Below, piece after piece: positions 7,133 through 62,875 of a stretch of 64,000 bases of DNA. The notes under the pieces are model-generated. The model worked only from the letters and a program-made list of their open reading frames with translations. It was not told the DNA's origin and made no database searches. The stretch comes from a virus (taxonomy: Duplodnaviria > Heunggongvirae > Uroviricota > Caudoviricetes), in the IMG/VR virus record IMGVR_UViG_3300045988_157791; one strand, 5' to 3'. How positions within the stretch are numbered: the first letter of the stretch is position 1; each line of letters opens with the position of its first letter. The position numbers and the translations under genes were made by a program.

Positions 7133-7175
7133 GTGCTTTCCTTTGTTTTTTAAACAAATTGTTTTCTAGTATTAG

Positions 7176-9018: not shown

Positions 9019-9378
9019 TTAACCTTTCTTCATCAACTCTCGTTTGATTTCATCGGTACGCATCGTGACATCGGCAGCGGTGATCGCCTCATTCAATTTC
9101 ACGATGTCCTCGATTTCCTGCGGTGACTTCTCTGCCAGATGGAAAATGGCTGCTCGAATCACGTCAGAACGAGTGAACTTCTCGAAGCGAGGGATGAACT
9201 TCATCATCTCCAGCAGTTCGAAGTATTCGTCCTCCAGTGACATTGTGCGGCTTTTAATTTTCTCTTTGCCACGAGTCGGGCGTCCCTGTGGTCTGACTGG
9301 TTGGCGCAAAGGAGTTGTGTTCTTAGCCGGTGCATCAGGCTCTTTGCGCTTTGCTAGGTCACCCATTTTCATGGACAT
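9019..9378 (-). CDS. ParG-like partition/centromere-binding protein (ribbon-helix-helix C-terminus)
   Basis: Directly downstream of the ParA-like gene (start/stop abut at 9378); basic disordered N-terminus plus RHH-like C-terminal segment. Confidence 0.5.
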   Translation of the reverse strand: MSMKMGDLAKRKEPDAPAKNTTPLRQPVRPQGRPTRGKEKIKSRTMSLEDEYFELLEMMKFIPRFEKFTRSDVIRAAIFHLAEKSPQEIEDIVKLNEAITAADVTMRTDEIKRELMKKG

Positions 9379-10078: not shown

Positions 10079-10112
10079 CTGAAACAACTTGTTTTCTTAT
10101 ATGTGATATAGC
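10079..10112. promoter_or_regulatory. palindromic operator GAAACAACTTGTTTTC upstream of the parA-like gene
   Basis: Near-perfect palindrome about 35 bp upstream of the ParA start; same motif recurs upstream of terS and several accessory genes. Confidence 0.5.
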
Positions 10113-37315: not shown

Positions 37316-37341
37316 TTGAATAACCTTAGATAATTACTTAC

Positions 37342-39269: not shown

Positions 39270-39313
39270 AAAACAACTTGTTTACTGCATCTGCTAACCA
39301 ACTTGTTTTCTGG
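39270..39313. promoter_or_regulatory. two AACAACTTGTTT operator-like half-palindromes upstream of terS
   Basis: AAAACAACTTGTTTA and CCAACTTGTTTTCTGG, same family as the parA and accessory-gene operators; adjacent hairpin AGAGCGC-GTCCAT-GCGCTCT at 39251-39271. Confidence 0.45.
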
Positions 39314-39401: not shown

Positions 39402-39425
39402 TCTTTAAATAAGCTCCCAGACCGA

Positions 39426-39692
39426 TTACATCACCAGTAACTTCGCTTTGGCTCGACCTAAAGTGGTTAACCCAAGAGTCCGGCGGTGATAGCGATTGTC
39501 ACTGCGTTGGCGCGTATGCCCTTTCTCCACCAGCCCCTTTTTTATCAGAGCGCGAATTGAGAACTGGATACTTTGCTTGGTTGTCTTGTACGGCAAAACT
39601 TCAAGCAATTCGTCCAGGTCAAGTAGATGACCTCGCTCATAACCGAGATTGAGCGTTTTGATGATGTCCTTTTGTTTATCGGTTAACGTCAT
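39426..39692 (-). CDS. small winged-helix-like DNA-binding protein (88 aa)
   Basis: Last gene of the five-gene operon; basic C-terminus. Fold assignment tentative. Confidence 0.4.
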   Translation of the reverse strand: MTLTDKQKDIIKTLNLGYERGHLLDLDELLEVLPYKTTKQSIQFSIRALIKKGLVEKGHTRQRSDNRYHRRTLGLTTLGRAKAKLLVM

Positions 39693-41952: not shown

Positions 41953-42617
41953 ACCAGAGCCTCACCAGCGTTCTCCATTTCATTACCGGTGTTAATAGCC
42001 TGCTCTTTGATGATGTTTTTTATGGTTTCTGCAACACGATCTGACGCATCGAAAGTTACTTTGAAGCGCATGGTCTGATGTTCCGCACCCACACGTTCGG
42101 TTTTCTCTCGTTTGTCGGTATCGACAGGCTCATCACTACCACGAGACAACGCCTCCAGTGCTTCAAGGTCGATTGCCGCCTCTTTTGCTAAAACCATCGA
42201 GATTTCGTCGTCATACGGGGCGATTTCAGACAGTTGATAGTCAAGTTCTGACTGAATTTCTTCAATGAAGCGTTGCAATGCGATTTGGTCGTCTTCACCG
42301 TATCGCTCGTTGTCCACCAGTGACATCTGTTTAGCTACGACATCGCTAATTTTGCCCACAGAAAGCACCGGAACCGTTGAAATTCCTTGCTCAATAGCGG
42401 CACGCCAGCGATGTTCGCCGCCGAGGATTTCAAAAAATCCATCTTCAAGTTCACGAGCCAAAATTGGCTTAAAAAAGCCCAATTTTTCGATAGAACCTTT
42501 CAGTTTTTCAAAATTCTGCGCACCAACCGAATTGGTGTTCCAGGTATTCGGGCGAAGGTTGGCAACATCAACCTGCAAAATCGTGATTTTTACATCCATT
42601 TTATTGCTACAATCCAC
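41919..42617 (-). CDS. ParB/Srx-like N-terminal domain protein (232 aa), paralogue of the downstream gene
   Basis: ParB-box-like LGGEHRWRAA; first gene of the operon, divergent from the SF2 helicase. Confidence 0.6.
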   Translation of the reverse strand: MDCSNKMDVKITILQVDVANLRPNTWNTNSVGAQNFEKLKGSIEKLGFFKPILARELEDGFFEILGGEHRWRAAIEQGISTVPVLSVGKISDVVAKQMSLVDNERYGEDDQIALQRFIEEIQSELDYQLSEIAPYDDEISMVLAKEAAIDLEALEALSRGSDEPVDTDKREKTERVGAEHQTMRFKVTFDASDRVAETIKNIIKEQAINTGNEMENAGEALVWLVDYYKERM

Positions 42618-42681
42618 TAAGTAATCACTTACTTATTATAATAGCCAAATAACATACAAAAGGCACTAAGGAAAGAGGTTT

Positions 42682-44243: not shown

Positions 44244-44522
44244 ATGAGCGAAAAGAAAACAACTTATTGCCAAGTGGCATTGTCTGATAAGGCCAATGAA
44301 AAACTTGGAAAATTTCAAATAAAACTCAAAGAGAAAAAAATCAAGATGTCTAAGGCTGAAGTTATCAATGCCATTCTGGAGACGATGACTATGGCTGAAT
44401 TTGACAAAGTCACATCTGCCGTTGGGGTTTCCGCTAAGACGCGTGAGAAAATCATGCGCATCTATGAGAACTCCAATATGACAAAAAAAGATCTAGAGGA
44501 AATACTGAGCAGGTTGCCGTAA
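44244..44522 (+). CDS. small ribbon-helix-helix-like protein (92 aa)
   Basis: Starts 2 nt after the helicase stop; KMSKAEVINAILE resembles an RHH strand-helix. Confidence 0.4.
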   Translation: MSEKKTTYCQVALSDKANEKLGKFQIKLKEKKIKMSKAEVINAILETMTMAEFDKVTSAVGVSAKTREKIMRIYENSNMTKKDLEEILSRLP

Positions 44523-46442: not shown

Positions 46443-46964
46443 ATGGTTAAAGACATCACCTACGGCATACCGGCTGAAGTCTGGCCGCGAGACTACGAAC
46501 ATGCTGAAAACATACTTATGTTCTGGCGGAAGAACAACATTCCTGTAAGAGTCACGCTTGAAGACGGTCAGGTGTTTTGCATGTACGTTCAGGGGACAAT
46601 GCCTTCCCGCAATAAGCTAGATTTATGCCCGCTTCCATATGATAAAGAAAATCGTATAAGACTCCCACTTGAGCGCATTAGCACAATTGAATCAGGTGTA
46701 ATCGATGGCATTGCTCGCGAGTTCAAAGGTAGGCTAACAATACATCCAGACTATGTTGACAATCAGCCATCACGCCGTGACTTTTTTGCGATATGTCGCA
46801 AGGCTTATCAAAACGACCAATCTATAAGGGTCTACATGGCAGACGGTCGTGAAATAGAAGGGGTGTCAAGAGGCGTTGATGCTTGTCAGGTCACTCTTAA
46901 GTTAGAAGACGGCAGAAAAATACTTGTTTTCTTCGATTGGGTTGAACGAATCCTTCCATTTTAA
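46443..46964 (+). CDS. hypothetical protein (173 aa)
   Basis: ORF followed by a clear intrinsic terminator. Confidence 0.5.
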   Translation: MVKDITYGIPAEVWPRDYEHAENILMFWRKNNIPVRVTLEDGQVFCMYVQGTMPSRNKLDLCPLPYDKENRIRLPLERISTIESGVIDGIAREFKGRLTIHPDYVDNQPSRRDFFAICRKAYQNDQSIRVYMADGREIEGVSRGVDACQVTLKLEDGRKILVFFDWVERILPF

Positions 46965-48812: not shown

Positions 48813-49295
48813 TTACACGCCATCAAGGATGTGGATGCGGTTGCTTGCGTATACATTCAGCATAAAGTTAGCGCAAAACAGTTTCCATGTGTCAACGCCA
48901 GCGGTATACGTAATGTTTTTGCATTTAATTGCATTGTTGGCGATCCGCATCCCCTGCGATACTGCTTCATCGTCGGAAAATTTGAACGACGATTGAGTTT
49001 TAATCCAGACAGAAATCTGCGTAGCGAACTCAATCAGCTTGGACTGGCAGAATCGCCCGGAGCGCACCGGAAAGACGAACGTTCCGAATCCAGAATTTAC
49101 CACATATGCTTTCTCAAATACCCGCGAGTAACGACGATTGCCAATGATGTTGCGTACAATAATGCATTTTTCTTGTTCTGACAGTTCTACCGTCTCATTG
49201 TGACGCCAGGCACCAAGTACTCGTTTTTCAATGTCAGAGAACGTTACAGCGATATTGCCATGTGCGGGTGCGTTTACAGTAGCGATAAAATTCAT
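48813..49295 (-). CDS. hypothetical protein (160 aa) with own operator cassette
   Basis: ATG at 49295 preceded by a conserved cassette (GATAAT-like box then AGAAAACAATTTGTT palindrome). Confidence 0.5.
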   Translation of the reverse strand: MNFIATVNAPAHGNIAVTFSDIEKRVLGAWRHNETVELSEQEKCIIVRNIIGNRRYSRVFEKAYVVNSGFGTFVFPVRSGRFCQSKLIEFATQISVWIKTQSSFKFSDDEAVSQGMRIANNAIKCKNITYTAGVDTWKLFCANFMLNVYASNRIHILDGV

Positions 49296-49335
49296 GATTA
49301 ATTCCTTATCGTAAATAACAAATTGTTTTCTTGTT

Positions 49336-49385
49336 GGCGTTAATTATCGTTGTACGAATAAGGCGTCAAAGTGGAAAGTTGCGGT
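49336..49385 (-). promoter_or_regulatory. conserved promoter/operator cassette
   Basis: AACAAATTGTTTTCTTGTTGGCGTTAATTATCG...GAATAAGGCG; near-identical cassettes at 49798-49853, 51451-51502, 51934-51988 and 54735-54810. Confidence 0.5.
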
Positions 49386-49499
49386 AGCCGGACGGGAACA
49401 GGTGGGTTTGTCGGTTGCCTGGAGGTAAGAGGTTGGTGTTTTTAGCCTGAGGGAAACAGGATGGTCATTTAAGGCCACCAGCATTGGTGGCCTTAGTCT

Positions 49500-49781
49500 T
49501 TAGTGGAGCAGACCGATGTCGATGGTATCCCCTGAATCACCCACACGGATCATCAGCATGGCGAAGGCGTTTAGTGGATAACTGGCGTGCCATTCAGGGA
49601 AGCGGTCATCTCGCATGAAGTCGGCAATGTCGTAAACGCAGCCCTCAAAGTGGAAGAATCGCGTGCTTACCTGCTCGTCATATTCCACATGATCCATTTC
49701 TTGCTGTTCTGTTTCCGGCAAGTCCAGCCATGATTCAAGGAATACATTTTGTGCTTTAGGGGTAATGGTGAAATCAGTCAT
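49500..49781 (-). CDS. small acidic protein (about 93 aa)
   Basis: Likely start MTDF at 49781 immediately downstream of a conserved cassette; Asp/Glu-rich. Confidence 0.5.
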   Translation of the reverse strand: MTDFTITPKAQNVFLESWLDLPETEQQEMDHVEYDEQVSTRFFHFEGCVYDIADFMRDDRFPEWHASYPLNAFAMLMIRVGDSGDTIDIGLLH

Positions 49782-50116
49782 GAGCATATCCTCACTGCGT
49801 AAACATGTTGTTTTCTTGTTGGTGTAATTATCGCAGTGTAGATAAGGCATAAAAGAAGTTAATACAGGCTGAATACACAAGAAAGGTTCTGGAAGTTGAT
49901 AACCAGGTTTCAAACTAACCTTCGGTTATTAAAAGTCATTTAAGGCCACCAATGCTGGTGGCCTTAATAATTATCGCCCGATTACGCTAAGGATCTTTTC
50001 CTCAACTGATTTGTTGTTGCGACTAAACTGCCTTGCGTATCTGATGACAGAAGAGGCGTTTTGCTTTCTGACCATCTCGGCTCTTTCCTTCAGGCGTTTC
50101 TTGAAATCGCCCATAT

Positions 50117-50533
50117 TTACCACCAGGCACGGAACGTCAGTCTATTATTGTGAAAGTCGTGGTTCTTAATCAGATCTTCCACAAGCTCTTTCAACTCCCC
50201 CACATCATGCCAGTAACCTTCATCGTACTCCTGACTGCCGAAGAAAAAACCTTCCCGGGTAGGCAAGTACTCTTCGCAATTACTTTCGTTTATGTGCATC
50301 AAATGAGCCTTCAGAAAACAAATGTCATTCATCGTTAATTCTAAAAGCTCACAATTTTCGACTTCACCTACGTTGCGCTCCATCCACCCAACGAGCGCAT
50401 TGAACTTACGGAAGTAAGCAACCTGCTTTCTGGATGCCTCGTTATTCAGATCGTTTTTAGGCTGCGTCTCGATATAGATATCAAGTCCCATGATGGTTTC
50501 CTTATTAAGTTGCTTCAGTGAAATCATTTTCAC
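50117..50533 (-). CDS. hypothetical acidic protein (start probably MGLDIYIE near 50491)
   Basis: ORF with AGAAAACAGATTGTT palindrome at 50549-50563 upstream. Confidence 0.45.
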   Translation of the reverse strand: MKMISLKQLNKETIMGLDIYIETQPKNDLNNEASRKQVAYFRKFNALVGWMERNVGEVENCELLELTMNDICFLKAHLMHINESNCEEYLPTREGFFFGSQEYDEGYWHDVGELKELVEDLIKNHDFHNNRLTFRAWW

Positions 50534-50608
50534 AAATCAGATAAGGCAGAAAACAGATTGTTATCGGGCATAAGAAAATGGCGCGGTTTACGCGCCATTC
50601 AAAGAGGA

Positions 50609-51070
50609 TTAAGCGAATACGCTTTCAGGGATTAAGGTGTCAGCAGGAATGCCGGAGGTAATGCGCAGGCCGTACTGACCAATCCAGGTAGTGTTGGTAT
50701 TCAGGCTGGAGGCGAATACGGTGTTAACCATATTCATCATGGTTTCAAACACCTCTTCATCAACCTGGCGGAAGTAGTTCTCGATTTTCAGCAGCAGCGG
50801 GTCAGTTGCATCGAAAATAGACTGGTATTGAGTCGCGTACTCGCCGCCGGAGGCATCACCTTTACGCACGATCGTACTGGCCTGGACTTCGGCACCAGTT
50901 TCGGTGTTGTACGTAACAACGGTGATTTTTGCCACATTCTTACCTTCGGCGGTTTCAGAGGCATAGTAAACATCAACTGTCAGTTTTTCGCGTTTAACGG
51001 TCATTTCACTCTCCGTAGTGTATTGGTTATTTTTATATTCTATGATCGTAAGTATGTACTTACAATACAA
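50609..51070 (-). CDS. hypothetical protein (start probably MTVKREK near 51004)
   Basis: TAAGTATGTACTTAC motif and a hairpin immediately upstream. Confidence 0.45.
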   Translation of the reverse strand: MYCKYILTIIEYKNNQYTTESEMTVKREKLTVDVYYASETAEGKNVAKITVVTYNTETGAEVQASTIVRKGDASGGEYATQYQSIFDATDPLLLKIENYFRQVDEEVFETMMNMVNTVFASSLNTNTTWIGQYGLRITSGIPADTLIPESVFA

Positions 51071-51130
51071 AAAAGCCCCGTAAGGATGGCGGGGCTGTCG
51101 TACGGTCGACTAATTACCACTTGCACATTA

Positions 51131-51472
51131 TCAGGCTATTGCCATCACTGATGCTCTCTGAATCTCTTGCTGGGCCACGCGGTTAACTTCCATCAAAGCC
51201 AGTTCGAGCTGATGTTCCGGCCACATTCTTTGAAATGCCACCCAGCCTTTTCCACGCTGGCGACGAACATTCATTACATAACGAGTAAAGGTGTTTTTAT
51301 CGAAAGACACCGCTGTTTCACGGAATAGACGAATAGAGGTTCCATTGGCAACGATATCCAGCAAAGTTAATTGAGCAACCAGTGCAGGCTTCTCTTTTCT
51401 CTTCTGGTCTTTGTCCAGACCAAGAACCAATGATTTTTTCATCACAACTCCGTAAACAACTTGTTTTCTCAA
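51131..51472 (-). CDS. hypothetical small basic protein (start probably MKKSLVLG at 51442)
   Basis: Conserved cassette AACAACTTGTTTTCTCAATGGCGTAAATAATACC directly upstream. Confidence 0.45.
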   Translation of the reverse strand: MRKQVVYGVVMKKSLVLGLDKDQKRKEKPALVAQLTLLDIVANGTSIRLFRETAVSFDKNTFTRYVMNVRRQRGKGWVAFQRMWPEHQLELALMEVNRVAQQEIQRASVMAIA

Positions 51473-51595
51473 TGGCGTAAATAATACCAGTAAGAAAACG
51501 GCTACAAAGCATATTGATCAGGTGCATGAGCGATATGCAGGTTCTTCCCTGCGGCTATAGAGAAATTAAGCCAGCAAAGCTGGCTTTGGTTGGGG

Positions 51596-51946
51596 TTACT
51601 CGAATACTTCAAGAAACTCCTGAACGTCCCAATGCTGGACGAGGTGAAGATAGACCTTAGAAATCACGTCATTTTCGCTATCGCATGTGAAGTAGTACTT
51701 CTGGCTGCGGTTGTATGTGTCCACACAAAATTCGCTCATATCCATAAAGTCAGCATCTTCACCCATGTCGCAAATCATCAAAGCAGGTGCGTCATCACGA
51801 GTCATCAGCTCAAGCACCCACCGCGAATTGATCAGAGTGGAAGACCAACCTTCTAACTCATAAAACTGATCAAACTCTTTTTGAGTTAATTTCTTGATTT
51901 GGTTGATGTCGATATTTGCAAACATAAAGCAACCCTTAAACAACAT
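51596..51946 (-). CDS. small acidic protein (start probably MFANIDIN near 51925)
   Basis: Conserved cassette AACAACATGTTTTCTTATTGGTGTTATTATCGC directly upstream; Asp/Glu-rich. Confidence 0.45.
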   Translation of the reverse strand: MLFKGCFMFANIDINQIKKLTQKEFDQFYELEGWSSTLINSRWVLELMTRDDAPALMICDMGEDADFMDMSEFCVDTYNRSQKYYFTCDSENDVISKVYLHLVQHWDVQEFLEVFE

Positions 51947-52283
51947 GTTTTCTTATTGGTGTTATTATCGCAATAACGCATAGGCGAAAAAGGATTTTAT
52001 TCCGGTGAATGTGGTTTTGGCAGTGAGTTTTCAGGTTCAGTACCGAGTACACTTTTTACATTATTCTGATTTAGTAGCCGAAGGTGGCTGGTGGGCAGAA
52101 TAATCATCTCCCCGAAAACCTACTGAAATCGATTGTGACCCGTTGGCTGTCTGGCACAATTACGCTGTAGCTGGGCATTCAGAGGGAATCCAGCGGTAAG
52201 TAAGTTCGCCTGCACGTGAGCGCCTCTCTTCTTCCCGCACATTACAGGTGGGTAGCCGCAACTCTCCCTCTCGCTATACCGGT

Positions 52284-52420
52284 ACGCCGCCGTTCCTGAA
52301 CCGGCATCGAGCCTTTTCCCGAAATCCACACAGGCAACTCGACCGTTTCCCTGAAAACCTCCAGCCGTTCCCCGAAGGCAACCCAGCCGTTTCTGTAGCG
52401 GGATGCAGCCTTTTCCCTGT
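52284..52420. repeat. iteron-like direct repeat array 2 (about six units)
   Basis: CGCCGTTCCTGAA, GAGCCTTTTCCCGAAA, CGACCGTTTCCCTGAAAA, CAGCCGTTCCCCGAAGG, CAGCCGTTTCTGTAGC, GCAGCCTTTTCCCTG; same orientation as array 1. The overlapping track ORF 52120-52578 is probably not a gene. Confidence 0.6.
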
Positions 52421-52579
52421 ATGGACCGAAGGCTGACCGTAGGGGTGTTACGGGGGATAAAATCAGGAGTTGAATAAATACGAAAAAGGAGGCGACACCC
52501 CTCCTTCCCTCCCAACTTATACATACCTGTCTTGTTCGCTATACATGTTGTGTTTTCTTCGTGTTTTATCTGTTTCAAC

Positions 52580-53400
52580 CTCTCTATAGGCGTTAATGCT
52601 CACTCCTTCCAGAACGTTCTATACGGCGACTATTTCTGTTGGTGAATTGGGTGTGTTGTTTTCCCTGTCGGTGTATGTGGTTTCGTTCGTTTTGCGATGG
52701 TTCTTCTATGGGGTGTTCTCGTCGTTTTGGTGATTGTTCTTCTCCGTGTATGGAGTAATGGCAGGTGGGCGATTCCTTTCGTTATTGTGTTTGAGTTGTT
52801 TGTCTGGAGTGCGTGAAGGGCTTTTGTAGTTATTCGTGTATTGGGTAATGGCGTTTCCCGTGATTGTTATGTTTCGTGTCTTTTGGGATTGAGAGAAACC
52901 TTGCGGTTACAGGCTTCGTTGGGGTTTCAGTGATTCTGATGTTTCTTCGCTGTTTGGGTAATGGCGTGTCGTGGGTATCGCGCGTATGAATGTTTTCGGA
53001 TTGCCTGTGAAAGTTAGGTTGGTTGTCCGGTAGCCTGGGAAGAAGAGGTGGGTCTTTTCGGTAGCCTGCCATAAAGAGGTTGGTTGTTTTTGGTAATGGC
53101 ATATGTGTTATTTAGTTGTTTTGTTATACCTGAAAATAAGTTGTTTATATGGTTATGTAACGCAACGGGAGCGATTTTGAGCGTGTGTTTTTGTTGGTAG
53201 TGTGTTGGGTCGTCTGTGGTGAAAATTGGACGCTGTGGCGCTGTCTGCTGCGTAGAGTTACGGGTATAAGAAGTGATGTGTGAAAACGTCAATTTTTTAG
53301 ACCAAATCGGGTGAAAGCGTTGACGTTTCGTTGATCTGTTATTTAGTTGTTTTCTTATTTGTATAAACAACCATAACCTATTGATATTTAATGATGTGAT
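52580..53400. repeat. about 800-bp strongly GT-skewed non-coding region with dispersed GGTAATGGC repeats
   Basis: Plus strand is G+T-rich throughout; GGAGTAATGGCAGG, TGGGTAATGGCGTT, TGGGTAATGGCGTG, TGGTAATGGCATAT at about 100-bp intervals; minus-strand ORFs are low-complexity. Confidence 0.55.
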
Positions 53401-53489
53401 TGCTGGTATGGGAGGGGAGTAGTGGCGATCAACGGATTCTTATAGAAAAGAATCAAATTGTGACCGCCATTATCAATGAGTTGCAACCG

Positions 53490-54059
53490 TTAGTTGTTCA
53501 GATAAACATTTGGAACACGGACGTAGAAGTTCCTGTCGCCGGTAAGTTCCAGAGTAATGTTAATGTCATTACCATTGTCTAGTGTAGCCGTTGCTCTATA
53601 GAACTTATCCGTCACCTTGTCCTCTATTGTCACCTTCATACATTTTGGTGCAGTCGAACCGTTATTCTCTTTCAGAATAGTTGTCACGAGAGGGCAGGCT
53701 GCTTCTTCAAGAGCAACCTCGTCCTTGTGTGGGATGCCGATGAAGATAACCCAAGCCAGCGACGCAACGATTATGATAAATGGCACTCTGCTGCCTTTTG
53801 TAATAGTCGCGCGCTTCCAGAGATAGACAGGCAGGAGGAATACCCCCCATAGAATTGAAGGTGGTTCACAGCCAGACTCCGATAGAGCCATTCTGTCAGC
53901 TACTAACAAACCGATGGTAGTTACACCCCCAATTATAATAGCGTAATTGGTATACTCTTCCGGCGATACTCCAAAGAAGAAAGGCATGAACGCTAGAATC
54001 CACGCATAAATGTTATTCAGAGGTTTTGTTTGTTGGTTCTGGGTTTCCATCACATCCAT
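53490..54059 (-). CDS. integral membrane protein (189 aa)
   Basis: Several hydrophobic helices (IYAWILAFMPFFFG, IIIGGVTTIGLLV, LWGVFLLPVYLW, FIIIVASLAWVIFIGI) and a hydrophilic C-terminal domain. Confidence 0.5.
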   Translation of the reverse strand: MDVMETQNQQTKPLNNIYAWILAFMPFFFGVSPEEYTNYAIIIGGVTTIGLLVADRMALSESGCEPPSILWGVFLLPVYLWKRATITKGSRVPFIIIVASLAWVIFIGIPHKDEVALEEAACPLVTTILKENNGSTAPKCMKVTIEDKVTDKFYRATATLDNGNDINITLELTGDRNFYVRVPNVYLNN

Positions 54060-54211
54060 TCCATCACATAAAAATCGCGTTTATATATTATCAATTTTCT
54101 CACTTGTATAACCTAAATACGCATCCGTTTATCAATCCACCTTCCACAAACATCAGCTTTAGCTATGAAAAATAACAATCTCAAAGTGAAAACCATTATC
54201 ATAGGAAACGA

Positions 54212-54397
54212 TTAGATGAGATGGTCTAATTCATCATCTATCATTGCTTTAACACTTGAGTCATTAACCCCGTATTGATTTATGAACCGTTTCAGCTCCG
54301 GTGAAAACTGAAGGTAGATATCGTGAGCGTTTTTCACTGTAGGTTCAACGCCACGCATTTCAAGCGCCTTTAGTAGATATGAGTCTTCTTTAAGCAT
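54212..54397 (-). CDS. hypothetical small protein (61 aa)
   Basis: Short ORF downstream of 54434-54742; weak evidence. Confidence 0.3.
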   Translation of the reverse strand: MLKEDSYLLKALEMRGVEPTVKNAHDIYLQFSPELKRFINQYGVNDSSVKAMIDDELDHLI

Positions 54398-54433
54398 AAA
54401 TTCTCCGTTGTCTAGTATGAAGCGATTGCCGGA

Positions 54434-54742
54434 TTACCATTGCCAGCACTCTAGCCCTTCAACGACCGGTGCACCACAATCAAAATGTACAGAGTCAAAG
54501 CCTACATCAAGTACTTTCTGAATGTTCGCAATCGCGCCCTCGGATATACCATATCGACGCAACTCATCTTTCCAGTCATCGTCCTGTAACCCGGCGTGGA
54601 CAATGCAACCGTACTCAATTTGTGAAACCCAATCCAGCTCATTGCTTGCGATCATGAATCGGCGAGCATCTTCCTCTGATGTATGAGATGAGCTGATCAA
54701 TGCCACCTGGTAGGCTTGGGTAATGTTCAACATTTCAACCAC
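54434..54742 (-). CDS. small acidic protein (start probably MLNITQAY near 54730)
   Basis: Two operator palindromes (AAAACAAGTTGTTTT and AGAAAACAAATTGTTTT) at 54737-54802 upstream. Confidence 0.45.
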   Translation of the reverse strand: MVEMLNITQAYQVALISSSHTSEEDARRFMIASNELDWVSQIEYGCIVHAGLQDDDWKDELRRYGISEGAIANIQKVLDVGFDSVHFDCGAPVVEGLECWQW

Positions 54743-54844
54743 TCCAAAACAAGTTGTTTTCTTATGTGGTTTATTATCTCCATCAACAAAAGGCAGAAAA
54801 CAAATTGTTTTAGGTACTGTGTAAATCAGAAGGGATTGTGTCTA

Positions 54845-54894: not shown

Positions 54895-56928
54895 TTACTT
54901 AACCTGGTGGCCAGGTTTAGCACCAGCATCCGGGCTTAACAGGAAGATATCTTTCCCGCCGGGGCCAGCAGCCATCACCATGCCTTCAGAGATACCGAAG
55001 CGCATTTTACGTGGTGCCAGGTTAGCCACCATAATGGTGTGACGACCAATCAGTGCCTGCGGATCCGGGTAGGCAGAACGAATACCGGAGAAGACATTGC
55101 GTTTTTCACCGCCGAGATCCAGTGTCAGGCGCAGCAGTTTGTCAGAACCTTCAACAAACTCTGCGTTTTCGATCAGCGCTACGCGCAGGTCAACTTTGGC
55201 GAAGTCGTCAAAGGTGATGGTTTCCTGAATCGGATCATCTGCCAGTGGGCCAGTAACTGGCGCGGCAGCTGCTTTCACTTCTTCTTTAGACGCTTCCACC
55301 AGTGCTTCAACCTGCTTCATATCGATGCGGTTATACAGTGCCTTGAACGGATTTACTTTATGGCCCAGCAGCGGTTGCTGGATACCATCCCAGGTCAGTT
55401 CTGTATTCAGGAATGCTTCTGCACGTTCAGTCAGTTTCGGCAGTACCGGCTTCAGGTACGTCATCAGCACGCGGAACAGGTTAATGCCCATAGAGCAAAT
55501 CGCCTGCAGATCGGCATCGCGTCCTTCCTGCTTCGCCACCACCCACGGAGCCTGTTCATCGACATAGCGGTTAGCCAGGTCAGCCAGTGCCATGATTTCA
55601 CGGATAGCTTTACCAAATTCGCGGCTTTCCCACGCTTCACCAATCACTTCAGCGGCATCAGTGAAGGTTTTGTACAACTGCGGGTCAGCCAGCTCGCTTG
55701 CCAGCACACCGTCAAAACGCTTATTGATAAAGCCAGCGTTACGGGACGCCAGGTTAACCACTTTGTTCACGATATCGGCATTCACACGCTGAACGAAATC
55801 CTCCAGGTTGAGATCGATATCATCAATGCGCGAAGAGAGTTTCGCAGTGTAGTAGTAACGCAGGCTGTCAGCGTCAAAATGATTCAGCCAGGTGCTGGCT
55901 TTAATAAAGGTGCCGCGAGACTTGGACATCTTCGCGCCGTTCACCGTCACATAGCCATGAACAAACAGGTTGGTCGGCTTGCGGAAGTTGCTGCCTTCCA
56001 GCATGGCAGGCCAGAACAGGCTGTGGAAGTAAACGATATCTTTACCGATGAAGTGGTACAGCTCGGCGGTGGAGTCTTTCTTCCAGTATTCATCGAAGCT
56101 TACGCTGTCGCCGCGCTTGTCGCACAGATTCTTGAAAGAACCCATGTAGCCAATCGGTGCGTCCAGCCAGACGTAGAAATATTTGCCCGGCGCGTTCGGA
56201 ATTTCAAAACCGAAGTAAGGGGCGTCGCGGGAGATATCCCACTGTTGCAGGCCAGATTCAAACCACTCCTGCATTTTATTTGCCACCTGCTCCTGCAACG
56301 CACCGCTGCGGGTCCATGCCTGCAACATTTCGCTGAAAGAGGGCAGATCAAAGAAGAAGTGTTCAGAATCACGCATTACCGGCGTAGCACCAGAAACCAC
56401 CGATTTCGGTTCAATCAGTTCAGTCGGGCTGTAGGTCGCGCCGCAGACTTCACAGTTATCGCCGTATTGATCTGGCGCTTTACATTTCGGGCAGGTGCCT
56501 TTCACAAAACGGTCCGGCAGGAACATGCCTTTTTCCGGATCGTACAGCTGAGAGATGGTGCGGTTTTTAATAAAACCGTTTTCTTTCAGGCGAGAGTAGA
56601 TAAGTTCTGACAACTGGCGGTTCTCTTCGCTGTGCGTCGAGTGATAGTTGTCATAGCTGATGTTAAAGCCTGCGAAATCAGTCTGATGTTCCTGACTCAT
56701 TTCGCCAATCATCTGCTCCGGTGTGATACCAAGCTGCTGAGCTTTAAGCATGATCGGCGTGCCGTGGGCATCGTCGGCGCAGATGAAGTTGACCTCGTGG
56801 CCGCGCATTCGCTGGTAACGGACCCAGACATCAGCCTGGATGTGCTCCAGCATATGGCCGAGGTGGATTGAGCCGTTAGCGTACGGCAGCGCGCACGTCA
56901 CCAGAATTTTCTTCGCGACTTGGGTCAT
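54895..56928 (-). CDS. metG: methionyl-tRNA synthetase
   Basis: 677-aa protein from [31 protein letters not shown] with class I HIGH-type (HLGH) and KMSKS motifs and C-terminal tRNA-binding domain. The track ORF extends upstream to a non-ATG start. Confidence 0.95.
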
Positions 56929-57085
56929 AGTAGGCATTACTTCTTTGTAGTGAAAAGGGGCTTGATAGTAACAAAATGGCCTTATGTCTGCCATGTGATA
57001 ACAGCATTTCTCATAAATGATTAAATGTCGTAGCTGGAGTACACTACAAGGCGACAATTGCGCAAATTAAAATAAAGGAGACGGG

Positions 57086-58186
57086 ATGAGCGAGTCCAAA
57101 TCGCCGGATGCCCTGAGAGCAATGGTAGCCGGTACGCTGGCTAATTTTCAGCACCCAACCCTGAAACACAACCTGACTACGCTTAAAGCGTTACACCATG
57201 TTGCGTTGATGGATGACACACTGCATGTCGAACTAATCATGCCTTTCGTGTGGAATAAGCCTTTTGAAGACCTGAAAGAGCAATGTAGTGGTGATCTGCT
57301 CCGTATCACTGGCGCAAAGGCTATTGACTGGAAGCTGTCGTACAACATTGCCACGCTTAAGCGCGTCAAAAACCAACCAGGCATTAATGGCGTTAAGAAC
57401 ATTATCGCCGTCAGCTCAGGCAAGGGCGGCGTAGGTAAATCCTCCACGGCGGTAAATCTGGCACTGGCGTTGGCTGCTGAAGGTGCGAAAGTTGGTATTT
57501 TGGATGCCGATATCTATGGTCCATCAATTCCAACCATGCTGGGCGCGGAAAACCAACGTCCAACCTCACCGGACGGTACTCACATGGCACCTATCATGTC
57601 TCATGGCCTGGCAACCAACTCTATTGGTTATCTGGTCACCGACGACAATGCAATGGTGTGGCGTGGACCGATGGCCAGCAAGGCGCTGATGCAGATGTTG
57701 CAGGAAACTCTATGGCCTGATCTGGACTATCTCGTTCTCGATATGCCGCCGGGCACTGGTGATATTCAGTTGACGCTGGCGCAGAACATTCCTGTAACTG
57801 GTGCGGTTGTGGTAACTACGCCGCAAGACATCGCGCTGATCGATGCGAAGAAAGGCATTGTGATGTTCGAAAAAGTCGAAGTGCCGGTACTGGGTATCGT
57901 CGAAAACATGAGTGTGCATATTTGCAGTAACTGCGGTCATCACGAGCCAATTTTTGGCACCGGTGGCGCACAGAAACTGGCCGAGAAATACAACACGCAG
58001 TTGTTAGGCCAAATGCCACTTCATATCTCTCTTCGTGAAGATCTGGATAACGGAACACCAACCGTTATTAGTCGTCCAGATAGCGAATTTACGGCTATTT
58101 ATCGTGACCTCGCAGATCGCGTTGCTGCCCAAATGTATTGGCAAGGTGAAGTAATACCTGGCGAAATCGCATTCCGCGCAGTGTGA
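57086..58186 (+). CDS. apbC: Mrp/ApbC Fe-S cluster carrier ATPase
   Basis: Deviant Walker A SSGKGGVGKSST, CSNCGHH Cys motif, divergent from metG with about 157-bp spacer, the usual enterobacterial arrangement. Confidence 0.9.
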   Translation: MSESKSPDALRAMVAGTLANFQHPTLKHNLTTLKALHHVALMDDTLHVELIMPFVWNKPFEDLKEQCSGDLLRITGAKAIDWKLSYNIATLKRVKNQPGINGVKNIIAVSSGKGGVGKSSTAVNLALALAAEGAKVGILDADIYGPSIPTMLGAENQRPTSPDGTHMAPIMSHGLATNSIGYLVTDDNAMVWRGPMASKALMQMLQETLWPDLDYLVLDMPPGTGDIQLTLAQNIPVTGAVVVTTPQDIALIDAKKGIVMFEKVEVPVLGIVENMSVHICSNCGHHEPIFGTGGAQKLAEKYNTQLLGQMPLHISLREDLDNGTPTVISRPDSEFTAIYRDLADRVAAQMYWQGEVIPGEIAFRAV

Positions 58187-58223: not shown

Positions 58224-58613
58224 CTACATCACGGGACAATCATCAAACTCGCCACTTCTTGCGTCGTTGATAATGTGAGTGATCACACCAAACACGGCAT
58301 TGCTGCCCGTGCATCCATCGTCATCCTTTGGCAATGCTTCCTTCTTACCGGTTCTTAAATCCTCCAGATGCTGACGTGGGTACTTCCGGTATCTTTTTAC
58401 GCGATATTCCCCATCCAGAGCGCATACAAGCAGAGAACCATCAACTGGGGTAAGTGAGGAATCAACCACCAGCAATGCACCCTGTAATATTCCCTCACGA
58501 TGATGACTATCAGCTGCCCGCATGAAGTAGGTCGCTGAAGGATGTCTGATTAGTTGCTGATCAAGAGAAATACGGCTCTCTGCATAATCCGCCGCAGGAG
58601 AAGGGAAGCCCAT
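58224..58613 (-). CDS. UmuD'-like S24 peptidase-fold protein (129 aa), lacks the N-terminal cleavage region
   Basis: MGFPSPAADYAESRISLDQQLIRHPSATYF... parallels UmuD from the post-cleavage Gly onward; Ser (ADSH) and Lys (RVKR) positions retained. No umuC-like gene adjacent. Confidence 0.6.
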   Translation of the reverse strand: MGFPSPAADYAESRISLDQQLIRHPSATYFMRAADSHHREGILQGALLVVDSSLTPVDGSLLVCALDGEYRVKRYRKYPRQHLEDLRTGKKEALPKDDDGCTGSNAVFGVITHIINDARSGEFDDCPVM

Positions 58614-58712
58614 AGCGTTTTACCTCAATGATACTGTTTATTCATACAGTATACATTGAAAAGGCATAGTTTGTGAAAGCGGGGTTTGCAGGCGCGCCAC
58701 GCTGGGGGCTAA

Positions 58713-60634: not shown

Positions 60635-61139
60635 TACTGTTTATGATGCTGTCAGTACAGGGAGTAGAAAGCTGGGCATCTCCAGCTATTTTCATGACTT
60701 CGACATTCGCATATCGAATACCGAGGTGTATCAGACCTGCTATACCTGACTTAAGTCGAACATTTTCCATAAACAGATCCTTTTCCCGCTGTTTAACGGT
60801 CTCCAGCTCAACACGCAGTTTCTCAAGCGTTAGGGCCATCTCTACGTTCTCCTGCTCAAGACGTCGGATGTGTTGCTGTCTTTTATCCAGTTCGTCCAGC
60901 AGTGCAATCACATCGGGATCACTATCATCAACTACTGTTACGCGTGATTTTTCATAATGTTCATCTGCAAAAGTACGCCCTATCTTAAAATATCCGTCAT
61001 CACTCTCACCGGAACAGGCATAAACAACATGTGCTCCAGATATGCGCTGTATTGACATTTCCTCGCCACAAACAGAGCATTTAGGCGCTGGTTTTGGTGA
61101 ATAACGTTCACGTAACGTCAGGTAGTAAATCTCATTCAC
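60573..61139 (-). CDS. zinc-ribbon plus coiled-coil protein (188 aa)
   Basis: CSVCGEE...YACSG zinc-ribbon-like N-terminus followed by a coiled-coil segment (RRLEQENVEMALTLEKLRVELETVKQREKDL). Confidence 0.45.
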   Translation of the reverse strand: MNEIYYLTLRERYSPKPAPKCSVCGEEMSIQRISGAHVVYACSGESDDGYFKIGRTFADEHYEKSRVTVVDDSDPDVIALLDELDKRQQHIRRLEQENVEMALTLEKLRVELETVKQREKDLFMENVRLKSGIAGLIHLGIRYANVEVMKIAGDAQLSTPCTDSIINSIASGVFTKEGQHYENSRSSR

Positions 61140-61591
61140 TGTTTATTTCCTGTACGAAGCTCAGCGGCAAAAGCTACTGCGTGATCATGATGTTCAAGTG
61201 TGTATGCGCACTCAGCAAACATCTCCACGCCCTGCGCACGTACTTCAGCCAGAAAAGCATCGGTGGCTGGAGTCTCCGTTAATTCGCTAACCCAATTATC
61301 TCCGTGTTCCTCGGCACACATCGCATCGAATGCTCGCTCAGATTCTTTCAGGGCTGCATTCTCCGCCGCTAATGCGTCTCTCTGCGCCCGCAACTTCTCA
61401 ATTTCAGCAGCCATGTAGTAACCAACCATAGCGAAGACGGCAAAAGAGTTGTCTGCCTCATCAGGCGACACTGAGGCCATTAGCAGGCCATCGTAAAAAT
61501 CGTGACTCCCATTGGTGATCGCCACCGCATAGGAGTCGTGGTTCTCGCGCTTGTGAATGAGAACTACGGGATTTTCGATTTTGTTACTCAT
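61136..61591 (-). CDS. hypothetical protein (151 aa) with coiled-coil segment
   Basis: 4-nt overlap with the downstream gene; AGAAAACAATTT operator-like motif upstream near 61650. Confidence 0.45.
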   Translation of the reverse strand: MSNKIENPVVLIHKRENHDSYAVAITNGSHDFYDGLLMASVSPDEADNSFAVFAMVGYYMAAEIEKLRAQRDALAAENAALKESERAFDAMCAEEHGDNWVSELTETPATDAFLAEVRAQGVEMFAECAYTLEHHDHAVAFAAELRTGNKQ

Positions 61592-61729
61592 GTGTTTTTC
61601 TCTTCTTTGCTGTTACATAAGCACTACCAAGTGCTGGTTTATTTTCACAAATAAGAAAATGTAGAAAACAATTTATTTAAGGCCATAAGTCATGGCCTTT
61701 ATTTATTCATGCAGAAGGATTTGTAGCGC

Positions 61730-62814: not shown

Positions 62815-62875
62815 GTGTTTTTCTCTTATCGTTTAGTAACTACATTCTTACACAAATTAGGTAAGTATTTACCTA

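What the first reader, a model, noticed from the sequence alone, without database searches (positions are those of the whole stretch)
49336..54810. Phage-wide palindromic operator AAAACAA-N-TTGTTTT shared by partition, terminase and accessory promoters
The 15-17 bp palindrome occurs upstream of the parA-like gene (10079-10112), upstream of terS (39270-39313, two copies), in front of the accessory genes (49337-49351, 49801-49816, 50549-50563, 51460-51476, 51941-51957, 54737-54751, 54786-54802) and, in degenerate form, in the right-hand region near 61650. This points to one repressor or activator coordinating maintenance, late and accessory functions. No obvious CI-like regulator gene was identified, so the binding protein is unknown.
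Basis: seen in the sequence. Interest (0 to 1): 0.65.

Follow-up and report, generated by a model that had tools for sequence, protein, structure and literature searches.

The report
Shared repressor operator of SSU5-like phage-plasmids
A 13-15 bp palindrome (AAACAA-N-TTGTTT) sits at a fixed distance from the core of about 20 promoters in this SSU5-like phage-plasmid, and is best read as the binding site of one still unidentified repressor that keeps replication, packaging and accessory genes silent while the phage lives as a plasmid.

Summary
The window is about 97% identical to E. coli phage-plasmid Cyrano (SSU5 family).

AAAACAA-N-TTGTTTT with up to 2 mismatches occurs 14 times against 0.94 expected. 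Twelve to thirteen copies lie in the 8% of the sequence that is intergenic.

The sites fall into two fixed geometries:
- **Class A:** centred about +13/+14, 20-21 nt after a mostly TG-extended -10 hexamer.
- **Class B:** centred about -38.

Where both occur on one promoter they are always 51 bp apart.

The same consensus and layout recur in SSU5, Klebsiella plasmids and Y. pestis pMT1. They are absent from the distant Pectobacterium and Moellerella relatives.

Deviations are always one-sided, the leaders do not fold, and published LF82 RNA-seq shows the target genes at background in the lysogen. I therefore read it as a DNA operator for a dimeric repressor, not an activator site or an RNA element.

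The binder is not identified. The ParG-like protein downstream of parA (9019-9378) is my best candidate, at about 0.3.

A second dispersed palindrome (TAGGTAAGT·ACTTACCTA) marks a second regulon, probably that of the XRE repressor encoded outside the window.

This is a new member of a known kind: a dispersed-operator global regulon, as in P1 C1 or RK2 KorA/KorB.

The parts
7151..7165 (.). Motif-1 operator, class A-like, 19 nt upstream of the ATG of the DnaB-like helicase gene (5792-7132, - strand). It heads the helicase-primase-ligase operon.
   Evidence: Conserved footprint against SSU5 and pRHB30-C05_4.
10081..10095 (.). Motif-1 operator in the parA promoter (parA 9378-10046, - strand). The ParG-like gene 9019-9378 is in the same operon.
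   Evidence: Conserved footprint.
39270..39309 (.). Two motif-1 operators 25 bp apart (39270-39284 and 39295-39309) in the promoter/leader of terS (38598-39230, - strand), the start of the roughly 27 kb late operon.
   Evidence: The same pair occurs in SSU5 and pMT1. Klebsiella has one copy.
49315..49329 (.). Class A operator. The -10 hexamer GATAAT ends 21 nt upstream of its centre. Target gene is 48813-49295 (-), 160 aa, PHROG 1641, function unknown.
49800..49814 (.). Class A operator. TGcGATAAT ends 20 nt upstream of its centre. Target gene is 49500-49781 (-), 93 aa.
50550..50564 (.). Class B operator. Its centre lies 26 nt before the extended -10 TGtGAAAAT, directly after the terminator hairpin of the preceding gene. 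Target gene is 50117-50491 (-).
51453..51467 (.). Class A operator. TGgTATTAT ends 21 nt upstream of its centre. Target gene is 51131-51442 (-), 103 aa, PHROG 5125.
51937..51951 (.). Class A operator. TGcGATAAT ends 20 nt upstream of its centre. Target gene is 51596-51925 (-), 109 aa.
53133..53147 (.). Motif-1 copy (2 mismatches) inside the non-coding, G/T-skewed repeat region 52100-53400. Extra TTGTTT half-sites lie nearby (5 half-site 6-mers in 53081-53400). Its role is unclear.
   Evidence: Orthologous copies occur in SSU5 (90739) and Klebsiella (25868).
54746..54811 (.). One promoter with both operators: class B (54797-54811, about -38) and class A (54746-54760, about +14), centres 51 bp apart, flanking the -10 GATAAT. 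Target gene is 54434-54733 (-), DUF5983.
   Evidence: The same 51 bp pairs occur in SSU5 (88318/88369, 93661/93712) and pMT1 (14680/14731).
61665..61679 (.). Class B operator (2 mismatches). Its centre lies 26 nt before TGtGAAAAT, after a terminator hairpin. Target gene is 61136-61591 (-), the first gene of the Ea22/Ead-like cluster.
9019..9378 (-). Best candidate for the binding protein. It is a 119-aa ParG/omega-like small protein immediately downstream of parA, with a disordered N-terminal tail and then the motifs IKSRTMSLEDEY and FTRSDVIRAAI.
   Evidence: Its own operon carries the operator. It is expressed in the lysogen (89 against a background of 9.8). The two motifs are invariant in 48-100% identical orthologues. 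There is a weak sub-threshold hit to the aCcr1 ribbon-helix-helix family. The fold was not confirmed.
44244..44522 (+). Second candidate: a 92-aa protein co-transcribed with the UvsW-like helicase on the minority strand. It is highly expressed in the lysogen.
   Evidence: Expression 114. It is only 52-58% conserved where the motif is invariant. No DNA-binding fold or family was found.
39426..39692 (-). Third candidate: an 88-aa winged-helix-like protein encoded just upstream of the terS operators.
   Evidence: 84-100% conserved. Weak Sta1/Lrs14/LexA-N winged-helix hits. It is at background in the lysogen (7.8), so it is unlikely to be the lysogenic repressor.

Best explanation
Motif-1 (core AAACAA-N-TTGTTT, often extended to AGAAAACAA-N-TTGTTTTCT) is a DNA operator. 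A symmetric (dimeric or tetrameric) phage-encoded repressor binds it.

The operator is built into about 20 sigma-70-type promoters, mostly of the extended -10 type, at two fixed positions:
- over the start of the transcript (centre about +13/+14);
- over the -35 region (centre about -38).

Some promoters carry both, 51 bp (about five helical turns) apart, with the extended half-sites facing the -10. That arrangement would allow cooperative clamping of the promoter.

While the element is maintained as a plasmid, bound repressor occludes RNA polymerase. This keeps four sets of genes off:
- the helicase-primase operon;
- nucleotide-metabolism genes;
- the late (terS) operon;
- a row of one-gene accessory cassettes.

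The partition operon is only throttled. On entry into a naive cell, or after induction, the promoters would fire together.

**Shown here:** the sites, their excess, their geometry, their conservation, and the silence of the target genes in a published lysogen transcriptome.

**Inferred:** repression, the promoter assignments (no transcription start sites have been mapped), and the identity of the protein.

My ranking of the binder is:
- ParG-like small protein at 9019-9378: about 0.3;
- 92-aa protein at 44244-44522: about 0.1-0.15;
- 88-aa wHTH: about 0.1;
- XRE repressor outside the window: about 0.1;
- another protein: the rest.
For: - **Excess and placement:** 14 sites against 0.94 expected, 12-13 of them in the 8% of the sequence that is intergenic.
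- **Fixed geometry relative to -10 hexamers:** the class A centre lies 20-21 nt after GATAAT/TATTAT, three of five with a TG extension. The class B centre lies 26 nt before TGtGAAAAT or GATAAT.
- **Too close to the gene for a downstream promoter:** the palindrome ends 11-20 nt before the ATG in the accessory genes and directly abuts the Shine-Dalgarno sequence. Class A sites therefore cannot be classical activator sites.
- **Invariant pair spacing:** 51 bp B+A pairs and 25 bp terS pairs recur in E. coli, Salmonella and Yersinia elements.
- **Half-site behaviour:** in 51 sites from four genomes the central base is free (A16/C13/G12/T10). All 25 inner deviations are one-sided and none is compensatory.
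- **Cross-genus conservation:** the same consensus and layout occur in SSU5 (21 sites), Klebsiella pJN2-26, pMT1 and the divergent pRHB30-C05_4. In the helicase and parA promoters the motif is the conserved block while the flanks diverge.
- **Silence in the lysogen:** the first genes downstream of the sites have a median of about 7.5 against a background median of 9.8. The parA operon is the exception at 50-89 (PMC9928086 S1 Table).
- **Specificity to the family:** loci with 4 or more sites in IMG/VR are SSU5-like, with one AT-rich exception.
Against: - No binding protein is identified, and no transcription start sites are available. The +14/-38 assignment rests on consensus -10 matches.
- The generic promoter scan did not call these promoters, because their -35 elements are poor.
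- The parA operon carries a near-perfect site yet is expressed in the lysogen.
- The promoter-proximal half (AATAAGAAAA) is also conserved in the distant Drgb1 and Moellerella relatives, which lack the palindrome. Part of the conservation may therefore reflect the promoter or initial transcribed region rather than the operator.
- Many accessory promoters are paralogous, so their sites are not fully independent.
- The site set used for the compensatory-change count was chosen by similarity to the consensus.
- SSU5, isolated as a plaque-forming phage, keeps all the sites.
Confidence: 0.7

Rival explanations
1. The palindrome is the site of a transcription activator made in the lytic cycle, for example the 88-aa winged-helix protein encoded just upstream of terS. 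The promoters would be silent in the lysogen simply because the activator is absent.
For: - The 88-aa gene is silent in the lysogen, as are the targets.
- It is very conserved (84-100%), like the motif.
- The -35 elements are poor.
- Class B sites at about -38 could fit a class II activator.
Against: - Class A sites lie between a good, mostly TG-extended -10 and the Shine-Dalgarno sequence, 11-20 nt from the ATG. No promoter can lie downstream of them.
- Extended -10 promoters do not need -35 contacts or activators (established knowledge of sigma-70 promoters).
- The same site occurs on early-type and late operons alike.
Confidence: 0.07
2. The element acts in RNA, as a 5'-UTR hairpin next to the ribosome-binding site. 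It would be a translational operator or stability element, possibly bound by the FljA-like RNA-binding repressor encoded at 46443-46964.
For: - Class A copies would be transcribed and abut the Shine-Dalgarno sequence.
- A strong FljA (Flag1_repress) homologue is encoded in the window.
Against: - Class B copies lie upstream of the -10 and would not be in the mRNA they control.
- Five leader RNAs fold no better than shuffles (z from -1.1 to +0.6), and in four of the five the palindrome does not pair with itself.
- 0 of 25 inner deviations are compensatory.
- There is no Rfam match.
- The spacing is fixed relative to the -10, while the distance to the ATG varies from 11 to 40 nt.
Confidence: 0.04
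3. There is no dedicated binding protein. The similarity would reflect duplication of one promoter cassette, plus a conserved initial transcribed or discriminator sequence that RNA polymerase itself prefers.
For: - The accessory promoters share extended similarity (GCCTTAT-N-GATAAT-N-CCAAnAAGAAAACAA), which looks paralogous.
- The left half, AATAAGAAAA, is conserved even in Drgb1 and Moellerella, which lack the right half.
Against: - The palindrome also occurs in promoters with unrelated flanks: parA, helicase, terS, cobT-like and RNR-beta.
- It occurs in both orientations and at two positions relative to the -10 (class A and class B).
- Both halves are equally conserved and the central base is free.
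- It is the conserved block in diverged orthologous promoters.
Confidence: 0.08
4. A host (enterobacterial) transcription factor binds the palindrome, so the phage-plasmid plugs its promoters into a host regulon.
For: - The consensus is identical in elements from Escherichia, Salmonella, Klebsiella and Yersinia.
- No phage-encoded binder could be pinned down.
Against: - From my own knowledge of E. coli regulator consensus sites (LexA, CRP, Fur, FNR, the LacI/GalR family, CusR/HprR and others), none matches AAACAA-N-TTGTTT. This was not tested with a tool.
- The only LexA box in the window is elsewhere (58634-58649).
- The motif is absent from the related Pectobacterium and Moellerella elements, which fits a co-evolving element-encoded factor.
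Confidence: 0.05

Closest known systems
Phage-plasmid P1: C1 repressor and its dispersed operators
   Same: Both are plasmid-prophages whose lytic, replication and accessory operons each carry a copy of one operator scattered around the genome, rather than a single immunity region. Repression is relieved by secondary antirepressor circuits.
   Different: - As I recall it, the P1 operator is an asymmetric 17-bp sequence (ATTGCTCTAATAAATTT) bound by a 283-aa monomeric-type repressor. Here the operator is a 13-19 bp perfect-type palindrome.
- No C1 homologue was seen in the Pfam, PHROG or NCBIfam scans of the candidate proteins; only a subset of the window's proteins was scanned.
- In SSU5-likes the late operon itself carries operators.
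IncP-1 (RK2/RP4) KorB-OB and KorA-OA global regulons
   Same: - Short palindromes (OB is 13 bp with a single central base) are repeated in the promoters of replication, partition and other operons.
- There are two distinct operator families and two global repressors.
- Operators occur at about -40 or downstream of the promoter.
- One of the repressors is also the partition protein.
   Different: - KorB is a ParB-family CTP-dependent clamp. Here the two ParB_N proteins (41251-42617) are not expressed in the lysogen.
- The sequence of the operator is unrelated.
- The element is a phage, not a conjugative plasmid.
pSM19035 omega and TP228 ParG: ribbon-helix-helix centromere-binding proteins that double as transcriptional repressors
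   Same: - A small protein is encoded right after a ParA-type ATPase, and its own promoter carries the site.
- Two 7-bp half-sites in converging orientation resemble a pair of omega heptads.
- Omega regulates copy number, partition and toxin-antitoxin promoters with the same repeats.
   Different: - Omega and ParG sites are arrays of short repeats next to the par genes. Here single palindromes are spread over about 100 kb and no repeat array flanks parA in the window.
- The RHH fold of the 119-aa protein is not confirmed.
- Binding is untested.
IncN/IncW conserved upstream (CUP) repeats with ArdK/KorA control of leading-region anti-restriction genes
   Same: A row of small one-gene cassettes each has a near-identical strong promoter plus operator. 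This would give a burst of expression on entry into a new cell and silence afterwards.
   Different: - The sequences and proteins are different.
- An anti-defence role for the accessory genes here is only hinted at, by DUF5983 and a sub-threshold T7 gp5.9-like hit.

Membership tests
Dispersed-operator regulon of a plasmid-prophage master repressor (P1 C1 type) | Many copies of one operator are scattered over the genome, each in or next to a promoter. | tested here: met
   13 sites in the window, 19 in Cyrano and 21 in SSU5, nearly all intergenic and at a fixed distance from -10 hexamers.
Dispersed-operator regulon of a plasmid-prophage master repressor (P1 C1 type) | A C1-family repressor protein and the asymmetric 17-bp C1 operator sequence. 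| tested here: not met
   The operator is a palindrome of unrelated sequence. No C1-like family appeared in the Pfam, PHROG or NCBIfam scans of the candidate proteins. It works like the P1 system but is not a member.
Dispersed-operator regulon of a plasmid-prophage master repressor (P1 C1 type) | Target operons are silent in the lysogen and de-repressed on induction. | tested here: inconclusive
   Silence in the LF82 lysogen is shown by published RNA-seq. No induced-state transcriptome or reporter data were available.
KorB/OB-type (ParB-family) global repressor regulon | A short palindromic operator with a single central base is repeated in the promoters of maintenance and other operons. | tested here: met
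   AAACAA-N-TTGTTT with a free central base. Sites precede the parA, helicase, terS and accessory genes.
KorB/OB-type (ParB-family) global repressor regulon | The binder is a ParB/KorB-family protein expressed in the maintained state. | tested here: not met
   Two ParB_N proteins are encoded, but they are at background in the lysogen (5.0 and 9.5).
RHH centromere-binding protein acting as global repressor (omega / ParG type) | A small protein is encoded directly downstream of a ParA-type (type Ib) ATPase. | tested here: met
   parA is at 9378-10046 (NCBIfam ParA_partition match, E 1.9e-33, 115.7 bits, below the 180-bit curated cut-off). The 119-aa gene at 9019-9378 overlaps its stop codon.
RHH centromere-binding protein acting as global repressor (omega / ParG type) | A ribbon-helix-helix fold. 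| tested here: inconclusive
   The sequence pattern (beta-strand-like IKSRTMSL, then FTRSDVIRAAI) is invariant, and there is a weak aCcr1 RHH-family hit (E 2e-4, below cut-off). However, the AF2 monomer model is poor (pLDDT 63). There is also no Foldseek, PDB, Pfam or hhalign support.
RHH centromere-binding protein acting as global repressor (omega / ParG type) | Its own promoter carries the binding site (autoregulation). | tested here: met
   There is a near-perfect site in the parA promoter in all lineages. AAACA/TGTTT boxes persist there even in pRHB30, Drgb1 and Moellerella. Binding itself was not tested.
RHH centromere-binding protein acting as global repressor (omega / ParG type) | The protein binds the repeats. 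| not testable with these tools
   Requires EMSA, footprinting or ChIP.
Lambda-type immunity region (CI/Cro with clustered OR/OL operators) | Operators are clustered next to a divergent repressor/cro gene pair. | tested here: not met
   No motif-1 site lies in the XRE (CYRAN_45) divergent region. That region instead carries the different palindrome GGTAAGTGCTTACC.
Structured 5'-UTR RNA element or translational operator | A stable hairpin maintained by compensatory changes. | tested here: not met
   Leaders fold no better than shuffles. 0 of 25 deviations are compensatory. There is no Rfam family match.

The most novel reading that the evidence does not exclude
The partition protein itself, the ParG/omega-like product of 9019-9378, is the global silencer. 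In that case about 20 dispersed palindromes would serve both as a distributed centromere and as operators. Plasmid segregation and maintenance of lysogeny in SSU5-like phage-plasmids (including S. Typhi pHCM2-type elements) would then be run by one protein. A separate XRE repressor with its own dispersed palindrome (motif-2) would form a second tier. This would be a KorA/KorB-like two-repressor network in a tailed phage.
Probability: 0.25. Interest if true: 0.75.

Novelty: new member of a known kind. Interest (0 to 1): 0.5.

Why it matters
**The family.** SSU5-like phage-plasmids are common in Enterobacteriaceae. About 800 PLSDB plasmids carry the marker proteins. They include the Y. pestis plasmid pMT1/pFra, which carries the F1 capsule genes, and they occur in pathogenic E. 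coli such as LF82. Published work also reports resistance genes on phage-plasmids.

**The gap.** I found no description of how this family controls lysogeny in four full-text searches.

**What this adds.** A defined operator with about 20 mapped positions, plus a second operator family, gives a concrete regulatory map. The map:
- predicts which operons fire together on infection or induction;
- supplies probes for identifying the repressors;
- offers a handle for curing or inducing these elements.

It also shows a row of individually promoted and individually repressed small genes that look like entry-phase (possibly anti-defence) cassettes.

Tried and rejected
- **Family scans of the candidates.** Pfam, PHROG and NCBIfam scans of the target genes and candidate regulators mostly gave no family, or only 'unknown function' PHROGs.
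- **PDB sequence searches.** The 88-, 92- and 103-aa proteins and the ParG-like profile gave nothing useful.
- **Structure models.** AF2 models of the 92-aa and ParG-like proteins were low-confidence monomers (pLDDT 68 and 63). Their Foldseek PDB searches gave no hits with E below 1.
- **hhalign against ParG.** The ParG-like profile against my recalled TP228 ParG sequence gave no signal. That test depends on my memory of the sequence.
- **Exhaustive HMMER search with the 92-aa profile.** It found only 26 representatives, none with a DNA-binding Pfam domain. One has a SHOCT C-terminus.
- **Co-variation test using distant relatives.** Drgb1 and Moellerella lack the palindrome, but all the candidates are diverged there too, so the test does not discriminate.
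- **pMT1 as a natural ParG-less case.** pMT1 has also lost the lysis, par and helicase regions and is evolutionarily very recent, so it is uninformative.
- **The XRE repressor as the binder.** I rejected it as unlikely because its own control region carries a different, also dispersed, palindrome.
- **A missing file.** I first thought locus L003 was missing from the scripting folder. It was stored inside L002.fa.
- **Literature.** Four searches found no description of this operator. The bioRxiv hit on p-p47 phage-plasmids concerns another family.

Full report
**What the window is.** The region 49200-55000 matches Escherichia phage Cyrano (OV696614.1) at 97.8% identity. Cyrano is the SSU5-like phage-plasmid of E. 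coli LF82. More distant matches are SSU5 and Klebsiella phage-plasmids. By synteny with the Cyrano annotation the window runs from the DNA ligase/helicase-primase region to the Ea22-like genes. In between it crosses the ParA operon, the lysis genes, the whole tail-head late operon back to terS, a ParB-ParB-ATPase cluster, a minority-strand island (UvsW-like helicase, 92-aa gene, FljA-like gene) and a row of small accessory genes. Almost all genes are on the - strand.

**Checking the observation.**
- The strict pattern AAAACAA-N(0-3)-TTGTTTT occurs twice, against 0.01 expected.
- AAACAANTTGTTT with up to one mismatch occurs 12 times, against 0.53 expected. None of 100 shuffles reached 12.
- The 15-mer with up to two mismatches occurs 14 times, against 0.94 expected.
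- ORFs cover 92% of the window, yet 12 of the 14 are intergenic. A 13th lies in a spurious ORF inside a non-coding repeat region. Only one (46916) is clearly coding.
- With three or four mismatches the counts fall to background, so the site set is sharply defined.

**Anatomy.** Read in gene orientation, the sites fall into two classes.

*Class A* has the form -10 hexamer, 11-13 nt, AGAAAACAA-N-TTGTTT, Shine-Dalgarno, ATG.
- In the five accessory-gene promoters the hexamer (GATAAT or TATTAT) ends 20-21 nt before the palindrome centre. Three of the five have a TG extension.
- With a start 6-8 nt after the hexamer, the centre is at about +13/+14.
- The palindrome ends 11-20 nt before the ATG in the accessory and helicase genes. 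There is therefore no room for a promoter downstream of it.

*Class B* has the form AAACAA-N-TTGTTTTCT-GCCTTAT-N9-TGtGAAAAT (or GATAAT).
- The centre lies 26 nt before the hexamer, at about -38.
- These sites usually sit directly after the terminator hairpin of the preceding cassette.

*Paired sites.*
- At 54746-54811 one promoter carries both classes, centres 51 bp apart, with the longer half-sites facing the -10.
- The same 51 bp pairs occur in SSU5 (88318/88369, 93661/93712), in pMT1 (14680/14731) and in Klebsiella.
- The terS leader has two copies 25 bp apart in E. coli, SSU5 and pMT1.

The generic promoter scan does not call these promoters because their -35 elements are poor. That is expected for extended -10 promoters.

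**Is it DNA or RNA, and is it a protein site?**
- In 51 sites from the window, the rest of Cyrano, SSU5 and Klebsiella, the central base is unconstrained.
- Half-site positions 2-7 are 91-100% conserved.
- All 25 inner deviations are one-sided and none is compensatory. This is how two independently read half-sites behave, not a hairpin. The caveat is that the sites were selected by similarity to the consensus.
- Five predicted leaders fold no better than shuffles, and in four of them the palindrome does not self-pair.
- Rfam finds nothing.
- Class B copies would not even be part of the regulated mRNA.

**Conservation.**
- The same consensus, classes and spacings are present in SSU5 (21 sites), Klebsiella phage pJN2-26 and Y. 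pestis pMT1.
- They are also present in the divergent Klebsiella plasmid pRHB30-C05_4.
- In alignments of the helicase and parA promoters, (T)AAGAAAACAA-N-TTGTTT is the conserved block, apart from the ribosome-binding site. The flanks diverge and the central base changes.
- The whole Cyrano genome has 19 sites, each in front of an operon start. These are terS, parA, helicase, the cobT-like gene, CYRAN_58, RNR-beta, TciA-like, CYRAN_87, CYRAN_93 and the accessory genes 101-111.
- An exact-match scan of IMG/VR returned 120 loci. Loci with four or more sites are SSU5-like, with one exception (L100, 34% GC). Unrelated hits are single matches in 27-44% GC contigs without the promoter context.
- The distant relatives Pectobacterium Drgb1 and Moellerella pW18-2-b are syntenic but lack the palindrome. 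Their promoters keep only ATAAT-N-AATAAGAAAA. The promoter-proximal half therefore seems older than the dyad.

**Direction of control.** The published LF82 transcriptome (PMC9928086, S1 Table) gives normalised expression for every Cyrano gene in the lysogen, with a background median of 9.8.
- The first genes behind motif-1 sites are at background: terS 7, helicase 21, CYRAN_47 8, 58 6, 70 13, 85 7, 87 7, 93 6, 101 7, 105 13, 106 12, 108 6, 110 7, 111 25.
- The parA operon is the exception, at 50-89.
- Together with the +14/-38 geometry on promoters that should not need an activator, this points to repression in the plasmid state.
- The same paper shows that Cyrano is induced 39-fold by ciprofloxacin, so some SOS-linked relief must exist.

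**Who binds?** This could not be settled.

*(i) The XRE-type repressor next to the integrase (CYRAN_45).*
- It lies outside the window and is expressed in the lysogen at 96.
- It is present in essentially all SSU5-like plasmids, including pMT1 and Salmonella plasmids, but is missing from the plaque-forming phage SSU5.
- Its own divergent control region carries a different palindrome, GGTAAGTGCTTACC, which is conserved in pMT1 and Klebsiella.
- That palindrome is itself dispersed. The full form is about TAGGTAAGT·ACTTACCTA, often immediately followed by a -10-like TAnnnT.
- GGTAAGTNCTTACC with up to 2 mismatches gives 3 sites in the window, 9 in Cyrano, 10 in SSU5 and 8 in 50 kb of Klebsiella DNA. 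Expectation is 0.2-0.6 in each case.
- It precedes the portal gene, the holin gene, RNR-alpha and Dam, it sits in the ParB/UvsW divergent region, and it precedes the one accessory gene that lacks motif-1.
- The XRE protein therefore most likely owns this second regulon, not motif-1.

*(ii) The 88-aa winged-helix-like protein.* It is 84-100% conserved. It is at background in the lysogen (7.8), which does not fit a lysogenic repressor.

*(iii) The 92-aa protein.*
- It is the most highly expressed conserved small gene, at 114.
- It is only 52-58% identical between clades that share an invariant motif.
- It has no detectable DNA-binding domain by Pfam, PDB search, an AF2 model, Foldseek or an exhaustive profile search.

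*(iv) The 119-aa protein directly after parA.*
- It looks like a type Ib centromere-binding protein: a disordered basic tail, then IKSRTMSLEDEY and FTRSDVIRAAI.
- It is expressed in the lysogen, at 89.
- Its operon carries a near-perfect operator.
- The two motifs are invariant in orthologues down to 48% identity, all of which sit behind a parA promoter containing AAACA/TGTTT boxes.
- The boxes persist at the parA promoter even in Drgb1 and Moellerella.
- The only database support for a ribbon-helix-helix fold is a sub-threshold aCcr1 hit. Structure prediction and profile comparisons were inconclusive.
- pMT1 lacks this gene yet keeps the sites. However, pMT1 has also lost the lysis, par and helicase regions and is very young, so this says little.

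I rank the ParG-like protein first (about 0.3) and leave about 0.35 for a protein I did not consider.

**Comparison with known systems.** Functionally this is the P1 C1 or RK2 KorA/KorB design: one short operator copied into many promoters of a plasmid-borne element. There are two operator families, and possibly a partition protein acts as one of the repressors. It is not a member of the C1 family (different operator type, no C1 homologue). It is not demonstrably KorB-like, because the ParB_N proteins are silent in the lysogen. Membership of the omega/ParG class is open. The row of one-gene cassettes, each with its own promoter, operator and terminator, resembles the CUP/ArdK-controlled leading-region genes of IncN plasmids.

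**Novelty and verdict.** Four full-text searches found no description of this operator or of SSU5-family gene regulation. This covers only the held library. I classify the finding as a new member of a known kind. It is real, conserved and useful as a regulatory map for a medically relevant phage-plasmid family, but it is not mechanistically surprising unless the partition protein proves to be the global silencer.

Noticed in passing
window 12680-12693, 16901-16914, 30331-30344, 37329-37342, 42620-42633, 51051-64, 62860-62873, 7928-7945, 981-994; Cyrano L003 2606-2619: There is a second dispersed palindrome, about TAGGTAAGT·ACTTACCTA with core GGTAAGTNCTTACC, often abutting a -10-like TAnnnT. 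The perfect copy lies in the control region of the XRE repressor CYRAN_45. Other copies precede the portal gene, the holin gene, tail genes, RNR-alpha and Dam, and one lies in the ParB/UvsW divergent region. With up to 2 mismatches the counts are 3 in the window, 9 in Cyrano, 10 in SSU5 and 8 in 50 kb of Klebsiella DNA, against 0.2-0.6 expected. It is probably a second global regulon.
   Followed up: partly
window 39346-39405 and 8032-8088: A 20-bp element, AAATATATACGGAAGCAGGC, occurs as two inverted pairs. One pair is just upstream of the terS operators; the Cyrano and SSU5 records are opened there. The other is in the 7925-8199 intergenic region. A related element, TCTATAAATAcTATGGGAGCaCGGCATT, recurs in Drgb1. 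It could be a specialised (late?) promoter or a packaging-related site.
   Followed up: partly
window 39243-39265 (- strand): A GC-rich hairpin, AGAGCGC-ATGGAC-GCGCTCT, followed by GTGTGTTTT lies between the terS operators and the terS start codon. It is conserved in SSU5, Klebsiella and pMT1. It looks like a leader terminator, which suggests antitermination control of the late operon.
   Followed up: no
window 46443-46964 (+): This is a full-length homologue of FljA, the post-transcriptional repressor of phase-1 flagellin (Pfam Flag1_repress, E 5e-81). It is carried on the phage-plasmid and conserved in SSU5, Klebsiella and pMT1. It could be a moron that alters host flagellin expression.
   Followed up: no
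window 52100-53400: This is a non-coding region of about 1.3 kb with strong G/T skew and degenerate repeats: GTGTATnGnGTAATGGC about every 90-113 bp, and CGGTAGCCTG(N)AGAGGTnGGT twice. It contains a cluster of TTGTTT half-sites at 53081-53400. It is partly conserved in SSU5. It may be an origin, a centromere-like site or a non-coding RNA locus.
   Followed up: partly
window 58224-58649: This is an S24 peptidase-only (UmuD-like) gene of 129 aa with no HTH. The only LexA box in the window (CTGTTTATTCATACAG, 58634-58649) sits just upstream of it. It is highly expressed in the lysogen and rises further in macrophages. Drgb1 has umuDC at the equivalent place.
   Followed up: partly
window 8199-8966 (+) versus Cyrano CYRAN_30 (window about 8240-9043, -): The + strand ORF has a GIY-YIG (LEM-3-like) Pfam hit above the curated cut-off. 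The Cyrano record instead annotates an overlapping hypothetical gene on the opposite strand. One of the two gene calls is probably wrong.
   Followed up: no
window 54895-57057 (-) and 57086-58186 (+): The phage-plasmid carries a gene that the Cyrano record annotates as methionyl-tRNA synthetase, and a divergent Mrp/NUBPL-type P-loop ATPase (Pfam PF10609 'ParA', E 2e-102). The Cyrano record annotates the latter as MinD. The ATPase is expressed in the lysogen.
   Followed up: no
window 54212-54733 (-): Two of the accessory cassette genes give family hits. One is a DUF5983 protein (E 7.5e-13). The other is a 61-aa protein with a sub-threshold match to the T7 gp5.9 RecBCD inhibitor (E 0.006). This hints that the operator-controlled cassettes are entry-phase anti-defence genes.
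   Followed up: no
Cyrano L003 268-822 (outside the window): CYRAN_43 is a 184-aa protein with no family hit. It is by far the most highly expressed Cyrano gene in the lysogen, at about 7000 against a background of 10. It lies in the integrase/XRE module that SSU5 lacks.
   Followed up: no
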